A stretch of DNA of 40,456 nt, taken from the IMG/VR virus record IMGVR_UViG_2778261534_000007, positions 1 through 40,456 of that record; one strand, written 5' to 3'. Positions 1 to 2,013 of this stretch are shown piece by piece (the first letter of the stretch is position 1; each line of letters begins with the position of its first letter). The position numbers and the translations under genes are program-made. The notes below the pieces were generated by a model. The model had not been told where the DNA came from. It saw only the letters and a list, made by a program, of their open reading frames with translations, and ran no database searches. Source of the stretch: a virus. Taxonomy: Duplodnaviria; Heunggongvirae; Uroviricota; Caudoviricetes.

Positions 1-1248
1 ATGGCACTGAATATTCCATTCAGAAATGCGTACTATCGTTTTGCATCCAGTTACTCATTTCTCTTTTTTATTTCCTGGTCGCTGTGGTGGTCGTTATACG
101 CTATTTGGCTGAAAGGACATCTAGGGTTGACAGGGACGGAATTAGGTACACTTTATTCGGTCAACCAGTTTACCAGCATTCTATTTATGATGTTCTACGG
201 CATCGTTCAGGATAAACTCGGTCTGAAGAAACCGCTCATCTGGTGTATGAGTTTCATCCTGGTCTTGACCGGACCGTTTATGATTTACGTTTATGAACCG
301 TTACTGCAAAGCAATTTTTCTGTAGGTCTAATTCTGGGGGCGCTATTTTTTGGCTTGGGGTATCTGGCGGGATGCGGTTTGCTTGATAGCTTCACCGAAA
401 AAATGGCGCGAAATTTTCATTTCGAATATGGAACAGCGCGCGCCTGGGGATCTTTTGGCTATGCTATTGGCGCGTTCTTTGCCGGCATATTTTTTAGTAT
501 CAGTCCCCATATCAACTTCTGGTTGGTCTCGCTATTTGGCGCTGTATTTATGATGATCAACATGCGTTTTAAAGATAAGGATCACCAGTGCGTAGCGGCA
601 GATGCGGGAGGGGTAAAAAAAGAGGATTTTATCGCAGTTTTCAAGGATCGAAACTTCTGGGTTTTCGTCATATTTATTGTGGGGACGTGGTCTTTCTATA
701 ACATTTTTGATCAACAACTTTTTCCTGTCTTTTATGCAGGTTTATTCGAATCACACGATGTAGGAACGCGCCTGTATGGTTATCTCAACTCATTCCAGGT
801 GGTACTCGAAGCGCTGTGCATGGCGATTATTCCTTTCTTTGTGAATCGGGTAGGGCCAAAAAATGCATTACTTATCGGAGTTGTGATTATGGCGTTGCGT
901 ATCCTTTCCTGCGCGCTGTTCGTTAACCCCTGGATTATTTCATTAGTGAAGTTGTTACATGCCATTGAGGTTCCACTTTGTGTCATATCCGTCTTCAAAT
1001 ACAGCGTGGCAAACTTTGATAAGCGCCTGTCGTCGACGATCTTTCTGATTGGTTTTCAAATTGCCAGTTCGCTTGGGATTGTGCTGCTTTCAACGCCGAC
1101 TGGGATACTCTTTGACCACGCAGGCTACCAGACAGTTTTCTTCGCAATTTCGGGTATTGTCTGCCTGATGTTGCTATTTGGCATTTTCTTCTTGAGTAAA
1201 AAACGCGAGCAAATAGTTATGGAAACGCCTGTACCTTCAGCAATATAG
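1..1248 (+). CDS. cscB: LacY-family oligosaccharide:H+ symporter (sucrose permease CscB-like), 415 aa
   Basis: Full-length ORF with ATG at base 1; 12-TM hydrophobic profile and LacY-family similarity across the length; N-terminus MALNIPFRNAYYRF matches my recollection of CscB (from memory, unverified). Codon usage is host-like, not phage-like. Confidence 0.8.
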   Translation: MALNIPFRNAYYRFASSYSFLFFISWSLWWSLYAIWLKGHLGLTGTELGTLYSVNQFTSILFMMFYGIVQDKLGLKKPLIWCMSFILVLTGPFMIYVYEPLLQSNFSVGLILGALFFGLGYLAGCGLLDSFTEKMARNFHFEYGTARAWGSFGYAIGAFFAGIFFSISPHINFWLVSLFGAVFMMINMRFKDKDHQCVAADAGGVKKEDFIAVFKDRNFWVFVIFIVGTWSFYNIFDQQLFPVFYAGLFESHDVGTRLYGYLNSFQVVLEALCMAIIPFFVNRVGPKNALLIGVVIMALRILSCALFVNPWIISLVKLLHAIEVPLCVISVFKYSVANFDKRLSSTIFLIGFQIASSLGIVLLSTPTGILFDHAGYQTVFFAISGIVCLMLLFGIFFLSKKREQIVMETPVPSAI

Positions 1249-1689
1249 ACGTAAACTTTTTCCGGTTGTTGTCGATAGCTCTATATCCCTCAACCGGAAA
1301 ATAATAATAGTAAAATGCTTAGCCCTGCTAATAATCGCCTAATCCAAACGCCTCATTCATGTTCTGGTACAGTCGCTCAAATGTACTTCAGATGCGCGGT
1401 TCGCTGATTTCCAGGACATTGTCGTCATTCAGTGACCTGTCCCGTGTATCACGGTCCTGCGAATTCATCAAGGAATGCATTGCGGAGTGAAGTATCGAGT
1501 CACGCCATATTTCGCTATCAGGATTCTGTGTGATGGTTACATCGCCCGGCCCAGGGCTGTTTAGTCATCAGCGCTTTCTGACAGTGCTGAGATTTCAACC
1601 TGTTGCAGTAAAAATGAGTAGATATAAGGCAAGTGTGCTGCCAAACCCATCTTTTACGGGGTGAAGGTAGATTTCGTTTGAAGGGTATC

Positions 1690-1704
1690 TGGTGTCCCCT
1701 GCAG
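1690..1704 (-). other. Prophage attachment-site core (attR); 15-bp copy of the 3' end of tRNA-Arg (argW)
   Basis: TGGTGTCCCCTGCAG is the reverse complement of CTGCAGGGGACACCA, the 3' acceptor end of E. coli argW as I recall it. It lies 74 bp beyond the torI stop, where the phage-host junction is expected. Confidence 0.6.
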
Positions 1705-1777: not shown

Positions 1778-1978
1778 TTACCCATTGGCGCGGCTTAAGA
1801 GCTTATTTTTGAATTCACAATGGTCACGATATAACCATCTTGCTCGCCCGTGGATAACTTTGGCTTTTGGCAGGTCGCCGGACTTAATCCGGTCGTAGAT
1901 GAAGGTTTTACCAAAGCCAGTATCGGCCATGATGAATTTCAAATCAACCAGGGAATCAGGCTGTAGTTCGTGTTGCAT
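1778..1978 (-). CDS. torI: Excisionase / recombination directionality factor, TorI-like (66 aa)
   Basis: 66-aa winged-helix Xis-like protein (FGKTFIYDRIKSGDLPKAKVIHGRARWL); position adjacent to attR as in KplE1, where torI and intS sit at opposite prophage ends. Confidence 0.7.
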   Translation of the reverse strand: MQHELQPDSLVDLKFIMADTGFGKTFIYDRIKSGDLPKAKVIHGRARWLYRDHCEFKNKLLSRANG

Positions 1979-1997: not shown

Positions 1998-2013
1998 GGA
2001 ATCGAACCTGCAA
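1998..2013 (-). other. 16-nt tRNA-Arg T-arm-derived segment upstream of torI
   Basis: Minus-strand TTGCAGGTTCGATTCC is an exact 16-nt match to the argW T-stem/loop as I recall it; chance occurrence in 40 kb is roughly 1e-5. Confidence 0.5.

What the first reader, a model, noticed from the sequence alone, without database searches (positions are those of the whole stretch)
1249..1689. Host-side segment between the permease and the att core has no clear gene
About 440 bp with a long-loop inverted repeat (CCGGTTG...CAACCGG, near 1262..1305) and no convincing ORF. It could be a remnant of a disrupted host gene or of an earlier integration at this tRNA hotspot.
Basis: inference. Interest (0 to 1): 0.25.

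Follow-up and report, generated by a model that had tools for sequence, protein, structure and literature searches.

The report
Decayed island remnant beside argW
The 441 bp between the sucrose permease gene cscB and the prophage attachment core is ordinary non-coding spacer found in about half of complete E. coli genomes, made of the tail of the sucrose gene cassette plus the collapsed, non-functional remains of an older genomic island that once sat at the argW tRNA gene.

Summary
Window 1249-1689 has no ORF longer than 44 aa. It has a real inverted repeat, perfect over 11 bp (1258-1268 / 1291-1301, 22-nt loop).

The segment is not specific to this prophage-bearing genome. It occurs in 2645 of 5426 complete E. 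coli genomes, the same set that carries cscB (2646). In 1471 of them it directly abuts an intact argW.

It is a mosaic:
- **1249-~1320:** the 3' tail of the csc cassette. The hairpin is conserved in Citrobacter amalonaticus csc loci.
- **1337-1623, minus strand:** a DUF4942 pseudogene fragment (Pfam E=2.5e-9; tblastn E=8e-18). It has a stop codon, a ~50-nt deletion and a frameshift, and it evolves without codon-position bias.
- **1621-1653:** a short piece of the neighbouring DUF957 gene (tentative).
- **~1644-1689:** a flank homologous to the integrase-side attL flank of islands now integrated at argW in other strains.

DUF957 followed by DUF4942 is the usual distal module of CP4-type islands, and the order and orientation here fit an island once integrated at argW. 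The finding is ordinary, already annotated in RefSeq as a DUF4942 pseudogene, and of low interest.

The parts
1..1248 (+). cscB, sucrose:H+ MFS permease (intact, 415 aa); left neighbour of the segment
   Evidence: ORF. RefSeq annotates the identical region as oligosaccharide MFS transporter / cscB. Under purifying selection: variable sites by codon position 17:5:59.
1249..1320 (+). 3' tail of the csc cassette (cscB downstream flank). Homology to Citrobacter amalonaticus csc loci runs to about 1316. ETEC strain L7_E1373 shares only 1249-1327.
   Evidence: blastn at 79-80% identity to L015-L017, running through window ~1304-1316; alignment A2; H40/L003. In Citrobacter a chemoreceptor (MCP) gene starts right after the hairpin.
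1258..1301 (.). Stem-loop: 11-bp perfect stem TTTTCCGGTTG/CAACCGGAAAA with a 22-nt loop, starting 10 nt after the cscB stop. No U-tract follows on either strand.
   Evidence: z -2.8. Stems are conserved in E. coli variants, in a divergent Escherichia lineage and in Citrobacter, with 0 compensatory pairs. The terminator scan does not call it.
1337..1564 (-). DUF4942 pseudogene fragment, main block. It corresponds to aa 76-151 of the 281-aa protein and has one in-frame stop (TGA at 1385-1387 on the minus strand).
   Evidence: Pfam PF13708 E=2.5e-9, 37.6 bits (cut-off 25), profile 5-62/190. tblastn 50% identity, E=8e-18. blastn 73-75% to intact paralogues. RefSeq calls it a DUF4942 pseudogene or short CDS.
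1536..1623 (-). DUF4942 fragment, upstream block (about aa 38-66), in a different frame. It is separated from the main block by a deletion of roughly 45-55 nt relative to intact genes.
   Evidence: blastn 72-74% identity, E=4e-13 and 5e-15. tblastn collinear HSP in another frame.
1621..1653 (-). Probable fragment of the DUF957 gene, the gene immediately upstream of DUF4942 in CP4-type islands. It is joined to the DUF4942 fragment by a ~270-nt deletion at a shared GAT. Tentative.
   Evidence: Window vs L004: E=0.003, 25/33. The orthologous stretch in the divergent lineage L014 matches better: 27/32, E=8e-6 and 2e-4. No Pfam support.
1644..1689 (.). argW-proximal flank, homologous to the integrase-side (attL) flank of islands currently integrated at argW in other strains
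   Evidence: 25-26 of 46 identical at fixed offset from the tRNA end, including the exact 10-mer GGTAGATTTC. Shuffle p <= 0.0004 vs strains 2013C-4225 and ARS-C301. No similarity to the K-12 attR host flank.
1690..1704 (-). att core: the last 15 nt of argW (tRNA-Arg CCU), marking the attR junction of the prophage
   Evidence: Identical to the 3' end of the tRNA in L001. Single copy in the window. Same junction as K-12 KplE1 attR.
1778..1978 (-). torI (KplE1-type excisionase); first prophage gene, given for context only
   Evidence: RefSeq annotation of the matching regions as torI, WP_001163428.1. Phage Kapi1 matches from window 1690 onward.

Best explanation
The segment is non-functional spacer DNA of the csc-argW locus, assembled from two sources.

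The left ~70-90 bp is the tail of the imported sucrose (csc) cassette, including a stem-loop just after cscB. That stem-loop most likely marks or stabilises the 3' end of the cscKB transcript; this role is inferred, not shown.

The right ~350 bp is what remains of a CP4-type genomic island (P4-like integrase) that was once integrated into the 3' end of argW. Internal deletions removed the integrase and nearly all cargo. They joined the attL flank to the middle of the DUF957 gene, and DUF957 to the DUF4942 gene. Arrival of the csc cassette, which also truncated dsdX on its far side, cut off the 3' half of DUF4942 and the old attR.

The relic has since drifted neutrally and been inherited with cscB. 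Later elements, here a KplE1/Kapi1-like prophage, integrate at argW between the tRNA and this relic, so the relic ends up on the host side of attR.

Shown: homology, anatomy, distribution and neutral evolution. Inferred: the order of the deletion and replacement events, and the role of the hairpin.
For: **Distribution**
- The segment is in 2645 of 5426 complete E. coli genomes, and the cscB 3' end is in 2646.
- 1471 genomes have the segment fused to intact argW, and 373 have this window's torI-side junction.
- It is 100% identical in the prophage-free strain OXA-181, lying exactly between the cscB stop and argW.

**Island origin**
- Pfam DUF4942 scores above its gathering cut-off. tblastn gives E=8e-18.
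- Two collinear DNA blocks match intact DUF4942 genes, and a third matches the adjacent DUF957 gene.
- Intact paralogues lie at or near the distal end of the conserved module Ag43...DUF932, antirestriction, JAB, DUF987, CbeA, CbtA, DUF5983, DUF957, DUF4942.
- Strain 2013C-4225 now carries such an island at argW, with argW, the integrase and that module all on one strand, reading away from the tRNA. The relic genes here lie on the argW strand in the same way. That island's attR abuts the same segment.
- The argW-proximal 46 nt resemble that island's attL flank (p <= 0.0004).

**Decay**
- The fragment has an in-frame stop, a frameshift and internal deletions. Lineage-specific indels of 18, 6, 2 and 1 nt occur among strains.
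- Variable sites by codon position are 10:14:10, against 17:5:59 in cscB. Diversity is 5.1%, close to the 4.6% at cscB third positions.
- A divergent Escherichia lineage (L014) appears to share the DUF957/DUF4942 junction and has further deletions.

**csc tail**
- The hairpin and its flank are conserved in Citrobacter amalonaticus, where a chemoreceptor gene follows instead of the relic.
Against: - No integrase fragment and no second copy of the att core (old attR) survive in the window, so the island cannot be reconstructed end to end.
- The DUF957 piece is short (33 nt; E=0.003 in the window), lacks Pfam support, and rests partly on the better match in L014.
- The attL-flank similarity is only ~55-57% over 46 nt.
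- No intermediate strain was found with a more complete island next to cscB.
- The relic always travels with csc. It could therefore have been acquired together with csc rather than having resided at argW beforehand.
- The hairpin has no compensatory changes and no U-tract, so its proposed RNA role is unsupported by covariation.
Confidence: 0.85

Rival explanations
1. The DUF4942/DUF957 fragment did not come from an island previously resident at argW. It was imported together with the csc cassette, for example because csc was cargo of, or adjacent to, a CP4-type island in the donor. The whole block was then fixed next to argW.
For: The relic and cscB co-occur almost perfectly (2645 vs 2646 genomes). 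csc-negative K-12 has an unrelated host flank at the same attR.
Against: Citrobacter amalonaticus csc loci, the closest non-Escherichia cscB relatives retrieved, have a chemoreceptor gene after the hairpin and no relic. The argW-proximal 46 nt resemble the attL flank of islands integrated at argW itself, and the gene order and orientation relative to argW are those of an in-situ island. dsdX is truncated on the other side of csc, which indicates replacement recombination rather than site-specific insertion.
Confidence: 0.1
2. The segment, or part of it, is functional in its present form. Possibilities are a small protein from the DUF4942-derived ORF (60 aa in O157:H7), an sRNA, the argW transcription terminator, or a host-side arm needed by the argW-specific integrase.
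For: RefSeq annotates short CDSs of 44-60 aa here in some strains. A weak terminator-like hairpin lies on the minus strand at 1642-1628, ~50-60 nt downstream of argW in prophage-free strains. GTAGATTTC (1667-1675) and GACATCTAC (1704-1712) form an imperfect inverted repeat around the core.
Against: ORF length differs between strains, and only 30 aa remain open in this window. Substitutions show no codon-position bias, and indels are frequent. There is no Rfam match and no excess folding energy. Promoter-like sites do not exceed the shuffled expectation. K-12 KplE1 has the same attR with an unrelated host flank, so the flank is not needed for that att site.
Confidence: 0.04
3. Plain ancestral intergenic DNA with no mobile-element history. 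On this reading the protein-family similarity is a chance match.
For: It is conserved as intergenic DNA next to intact argW in 1471 genomes.
Against: The Pfam score is above the curated cut-off. tblastn gives E=8e-18. There is 72-76% DNA identity over ~200 nt to DUF4942 genes in more than a thousand other genomes, plus collinear second and third blocks.
Confidence: 0.01

Closest known systems
DUF4942 (PF13708) genes of CP4-type (CP4-44 / CP4-57-like) genomic islands with P4-like integrases, e.g. the E. coli Nissle island gene WP_001529401.1 that follows cbeA, cbtA, DUF5983 and DUF957
   Same: Sequence homology at 50% aa and 72-76% nt identity. A fragment of the upstream neighbour DUF957 is retained. 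The relic genes lie on the same strand as argW, as the module genes do in the island now at argW in strain 2013C-4225.
   Different: Only about aa 38-151 of 281 survive, with a stop, a frameshift and an internal deletion. There is no integrase, no toxin-antitoxin module and no attR. It is a pseudogene fragment, not a member with function.
The variable argW-dsdCXA / csc genetic island of E. coli (Jahreis et al. 2002; Moritz and Welch 2006, as cited in PMC11251922 and PMC3032704)
   Same: Same locus: yfdC, argW, (mobile elements), cscB, cscK, cscA, cscR, truncated dsdX, dsdA. It is described as a recombination hotspot.
   Different: The papers I could read do not describe the cscB-argW spacer itself. 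The anatomy given here (csc tail plus collapsed island) is my reconstruction.
KplE1 (CPS-53) prophage of E. coli K-12 and phage Kapi1, which use argW as attachment site
   Same: The junction at 1690-1704 and the adjacent torI region match K-12 attR closely: 97% identity over 1690-1789 and an identical 15-nt core.
   Different: This concerns the prophage side only. The examined segment lies outside the prophage and is unrelated to the K-12 host flank.
Rho-independent terminators / 3' stabilising stem-loops
   Same: A stable stem-loop begins 10 nt after a stop codon at the end of an operon.
   Different: The loop is 22 nt and no U-tract follows. The consensus terminator scan does not detect it, and there is no covariation.

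Membership tests
DUF4942 (Pfam PF13708) protein-coding gene | Significant match to the family profile | tested here: met
   37.6 bits against a cut-off of 25, E=2.5e-9, profile positions 5-62 of 190. tblastn E=8e-18 to a 281-aa member.
DUF4942 (Pfam PF13708) protein-coding gene | Intact full-length reading frame under purifying selection | tested here: not met
   Only about aa 38-151 are present, with an in-frame stop, a frameshift and a ~50-nt deletion. Variable sites by codon position are 10:14:10. It is therefore a pseudogene fragment.
CP4-type genomic island integrated at a tRNA gene | Conserved distal gene module in native order (DUF957 then DUF4942), reading away from the tRNA | tested here: met
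   The blocks are collinear on the argW strand. An island with the proximal genes of that module (DUF932 to YeeU) on the argW strand sits at argW in strain 2013C-4225. The DUF957 part is tentative.
CP4-type genomic island integrated at a tRNA gene | P4-like tyrosine integrase next to the tRNA | tested here: not met
   There is no integrase-like ORF or Pfam hit in 1249-1689. Only ~46 nt resembling the integrase-side attL flank remain.
CP4-type genomic island integrated at a tRNA gene | Direct repeat of the tRNA 3' end (attR) at the distal boundary | tested here: not met
   The core TGGTGTCCCCTGCAG occurs once in the window even when 2 mismatches are allowed. The distal end was replaced by the csc tail.
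Intrinsic (Rho-independent) terminator | G+C-rich stem, short loop and a following U-tract | tested here: not met
   The stem is 11 bp with only 5 G-C pairs and the loop is 22 nt. It is followed by AAAAUAAUAAUAG on + and AGUUUACG on -. The scan does not call it.
Any curated RNA family (Rfam 15) | Covariance-model match | tested here: not met
   There is no match in 1249-1689 up to E=1. The only hit in 1100-2200 is a sub-threshold STnc130 match at 1928-2055, outside the segment.
Dispersed repeat (REP/ERIC/MITE-like) | Multiple copies elsewhere in the genome | tested here: not met
   In the sampled listing of the blastn search of 5426 genomes, every extra place covers only segment positions 97-298, the DUF4942 paralogues. 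The hairpin region shows no extra copies at E<=1e-5. Very short matches would be missed.

The most novel reading that the evidence does not exclude
The cscB-proximal stem-loop (1258-1301) may be a conserved functional element of the csc cassette. A 29-nt block including its left arm and half of the loop is invariant between E. coli and Citrobacter amalonaticus, although cscB itself is only ~80% identical there. Candidate roles are a 3'-end or stability determinant of the cscKB mRNA. In Citrobacter it could also be a translational or transcriptional control element for the chemoreceptor gene that starts 9 nt after it. The island relic would remain inert under this reading.
Probability: 0.15. 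Interest if true: 0.2.

Novelty: already known. Interest (0 to 1): 0.08.

Why it matters
It matters little beyond annotation hygiene. It shows that the host-side DNA next to this prophage's attR is not part of the prophage and not a hidden gene. It is a fossil of serial occupation of the argW hotspot, in this order: a CP4-type island, then csc replacement, then a KplE1/Kapi1-like phage.

Practically, it gives exact boundaries for delimiting prophages at argW. It explains the inconsistent short "DUF4942" and "hypothetical" CDS calls in RefSeq. It also flags four GenBank phage records that carry this host DNA.

Tried and rejected
- **RNA families:** an Rfam scan of 1100-2200 at E<=1 found nothing in the segment.
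- **RNA structure:** whole-segment folding on both strands showed no excess structure.
- **Promoters and terminators:** the scan found one promoter-like site, fewer than the shuffled expectation. Its only call inside the segment was a weak minus-strand terminator-like hairpin at 1642-1628.
- **CscR operator:** I tested whether the hairpin arms resemble a CscR operator elsewhere in the csc locus. There is no copy in the cscA-cscK intergenic region, so this was rejected.
- **Hairpin covariation:** 0 compensatory pairs. One strain (LH50c) has one G-U change and one broken pair.
- **Pfam on other frames:** the other minus-strand frames, including the putative DUF957 piece, gave no hit.
- **Literature:** the Moritz and Welch 2006 paper (PMC1698345) is not held in the library.
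- **Intermediate strains:** I looked for strains with a more complete DUF4942 next to cscB. None appeared among the sampled hits. ETEC L7_E1373 instead has ISEc46 plus an integrase N-terminal relic.
- **Not run:** the large protein-database searches and structure prediction, because the answer did not depend on them.

Full report
**Observation**

The window starts with an intact 415-aa MFS permease gene (1-1248, +). RefSeq annotates identical DNA as cscB / oligosaccharide MFS transporter. The 15-mer TGGTGTCCCCTGCAG at 1690-1704 is the reverse complement of the 3' end of argW (tRNA-Arg CCU), as read in a prophage-free strain, and it occurs once in the window. ARAGORN finds no complete tRNA in the window.

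Between these features, 1249-1689 (441 bp, 45% G+C) has no ORF longer than 44 aa. The reported inverted repeat exists and is longer than stated: 11 nt, perfect, at 1258-1268 / 1291-1301 with a 22-nt loop. It folds at -20.1 kcal/mol, z = -2.8. The rest of the segment shows no excess structure. It has no Rfam match and no excess of promoter-like sites.

**Distribution**

- The segment is present in 2645 of 5426 complete E. coli genomes, always chromosomal, at 90-100% identity.
- The 3' end of cscB is present in 2646, so the two are essentially inseparable.
- In strain OXA-181 the segment is 100% identical and lies exactly between the cscB stop and an intact argW. The surrounding order is yfdC, argW, segment, cscB, cscK, cscA, cscR, truncated dsdX, dsdA.
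- A probe spanning the last 100 nt of the segment plus argW is fully covered in 1471 genomes.
- The window's own junction (segment, core, torI side) is in 373 genomes.
- Other genomes have other elements at the same point: an O157:H7 prophage remnant and a CP4-type island in strain 2013C-4225.

The segment is therefore ordinary conserved spacer of csc+ E. coli, on the host side of whatever is integrated at argW.

**Anatomy**

(a) *csc tail, 1249-~1320.* Citrobacter amalonaticus csc loci (CscB 91-92% identical) align with the window at about 79-80% through cscB's 3' end and on to ~1304-1316. The hairpin stems and the left half of the loop are invariant there, although the last cscB codons differ. 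In Citrobacter a chemoreceptor (MCP/HAMP) gene starts 9 nt after the hairpin. E. coli keeps only about 15 nt of homology past the hairpin. ETEC strain L7_E1373 shares only 1249-1327 and then has ISEc46 and an integrase N-terminal relic before argW. No pair in the hairpin shows compensatory change, and no U-tract follows it. A role at the 3' end of the cscKB mRNA is an inference only.

(b) *DUF4942 fragment, 1337-1623 on the minus strand.*
- The conceptual translation hits Pfam DUF4942 above the gathering cut-off (37.6 bits, E=2.5e-9, profile 5-62/190).
- The 281-aa DUF4942 protein of E. coli Nissle aligns aa 76-151 to 1564..1337 at 50% identity with one in-frame stop (E=8e-18). It aligns aa 38-65 to 1623..1540 in another frame.
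- At DNA level, 1345-1546 is 73-75% identical and 1536-1623 is 72-74% identical to intact paralogues. Roughly 45-55 nt are missing between these two blocks.
- More than 1200 further genomes match only this part, at 60-80% identity; the sampled rows fall in annotated DUF4942 genes.
- RefSeq marks the spot as a DUF4942 pseudogene, or as short CDSs of 44-60 aa whose length differs by strain.

(c) *DUF957 fragment, 1621-1653.* This stretch matches the middle of the DUF957 gene, which lies immediately upstream of DUF4942 in intact islands. In the window the match is E=0.003. The orthologous stretch in a divergent Escherichia lineage (L014) matches better, at 27/32 and E=8e-6. The two lineages appear to share the DUF4942/DUF957 junction at a GAT, which implies a ~270-nt deletion. 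This part is tentative.

(d) *attL flank, ~1644-1689.* The 46 nt next to the tRNA end are 25-26/46 identical, at fixed offset, to the integrase-side flank of islands now integrated at argW in strains 2013C-4225 and ARS-C301. The match includes the 10-mer GGTAGATTTC (shuffle p <= 0.0004). They are unrelated to the K-12 attR host flank.

**Why this is an island relic**

In intact elements, DUF957 and DUF4942 lie at or near the distal end of the conserved CP4-type module: Ag43, DUF932, antirestriction, JAB/RadC, DUF987, CbeA, CbtA, DUF5983, DUF957, DUF4942. In strain 2013C-4225 such an island sits at argW. The integrase is next to the tRNA, and the module genes are on the tRNA's strand, reading away from it. 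The island's attR core (TGGTGTCCCCTGCAGGAAT) abuts the very same segment.

In the window the relic pieces are on the argW strand. Their order from the tRNA is attL flank, DUF957', DUF4942'. This is what remains if the interior of such an island is deleted. The 3' half of DUF4942 and the old attR are missing: no second core copy is found, and the csc tail begins there. csc also truncates dsdX on its other side. Replacement of the island's distal end through dsdC/dsdX' by the csc cassette is therefore the simplest history. This order of events is inferred.

**Evidence for decay**

I compared seven deliberately diverse alleles.
- The relic has 41 variable sites and indels of 18, 6, 2 and 1 nt.
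- Variable sites in the main block fall 10:14:10 over codon positions, against 17:5:59 in cscB from the same strains.
- Nucleotide diversity of the relic is 5.1%, close to the 4.6% at cscB third positions. cscB overall is 2.1%.
- The relic therefore evolves at about the neutral rate.

**Context**

The DNA to the right of 1690 matches K-12's KplE1/CPS-53 attR end: 97% identical over 1690-1789, with an identical 15-nt core and first 14 phage-side nt. It includes torI (1778-1978, -) and matches phage Kapi1 from its third base. The literature I could read describes csc as lying at a recombination hotspot near argW, between the variable argW region and dsdX (PMC11251922, PMC3032704). I found no description of the spacer itself.

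**Verdict**

The interpretation "remnant of an earlier integration at this tRNA hotspot" is supported, and "disrupted host gene" is not. The proposed refutation test comes out positive, since the segment is conserved in prophage-free strains, but it does not refute the reading because the conserved spacer is itself the fossil.

The feature is ordinary, non-functional as far as sequence evidence goes, and already flagged by RefSeq annotation. Interest is low. The only mildly open point is whether the conserved cscB-proximal stem-loop has a function.

Noticed in passing
window 1998-2013 (with 1690-1704): GGAATCGAACCTGCAA is an exact 16-nt copy of the stretch of argW that follows the 15-nt att core, overlapping its last G. 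In the tRNA the two pieces are contiguous. Here they are separated by ~293 bp that contain torI. 0 of 100 shuffles give a match. The same fragment sits upstream of torI in K-12 KplE1. It may be a vestige of a longer ancestral attP/tRNA homology or of an older junction.
   Followed up: partly
window 1690-40456: The prophage is of the KplE1 (CPS-53) / phage Kapi1 type. torI and the attR junction closely match K-12 (97% identity over 1690-1789). The early region matches Kapi1, HK140 and related lambdoid or P22-like phages at 93-96% in patches. No tRNA is found in the window, so the argW/attL end lies beyond it.
   Followed up: partly
GenBank phage records ON470608.1, ON470622.1, ON470589.1, ON470594.1: These four phage records contain the full host segment 1249-1689 at 95.7-100% identity. 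In three of them it is annotated in part as 'A-kinase anchor protein 5'. This is host DNA carried in the records with a spurious annotation. They probably correspond to the 'four coliphage genomes with csc' mentioned in PMC11251922.
   Followed up: no
window 1695-1702 / 1721-1728 and 1667-1675 / 1704-1712: Two inverted repeats straddle the att core: TCCCCTGC/GCAGGGGA (perfect) and GTAGATTTC/GACATCTAC (8 of 9). They may be core-type integrase binding sites of attR.
   Followed up: no
L017 5249-6422 (Citrobacter amalonaticus P55): In Citrobacter the conserved csc hairpin is followed 9 nt later by the start of a 370-aa methyl-accepting chemotaxis protein gene. The hairpin's 3' arm overlaps the likely ribosome-binding region.
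   Followed up: partly
L003 6001-8359 (ETEC L7_E1373): This is an alternative cscB-argW spacer. It has 79 bp of csc tail, then ISEc46 (tnpB and tnpA), then an integrase N-terminal (Arm DNA-binding domain) relic next to argW. It is an independent trace of island occupation at the same site.
   Followed up: no
L001 4753-6000 (strain OXA-181) and L002 2453-4681 (O157:H7 strain 9234): The csc genes are themselves decaying in some strains. cscB has an internal stop in OXA-181, and cscK is split by IS1203 in O157:H7 strain 9234.
   Followed up: no
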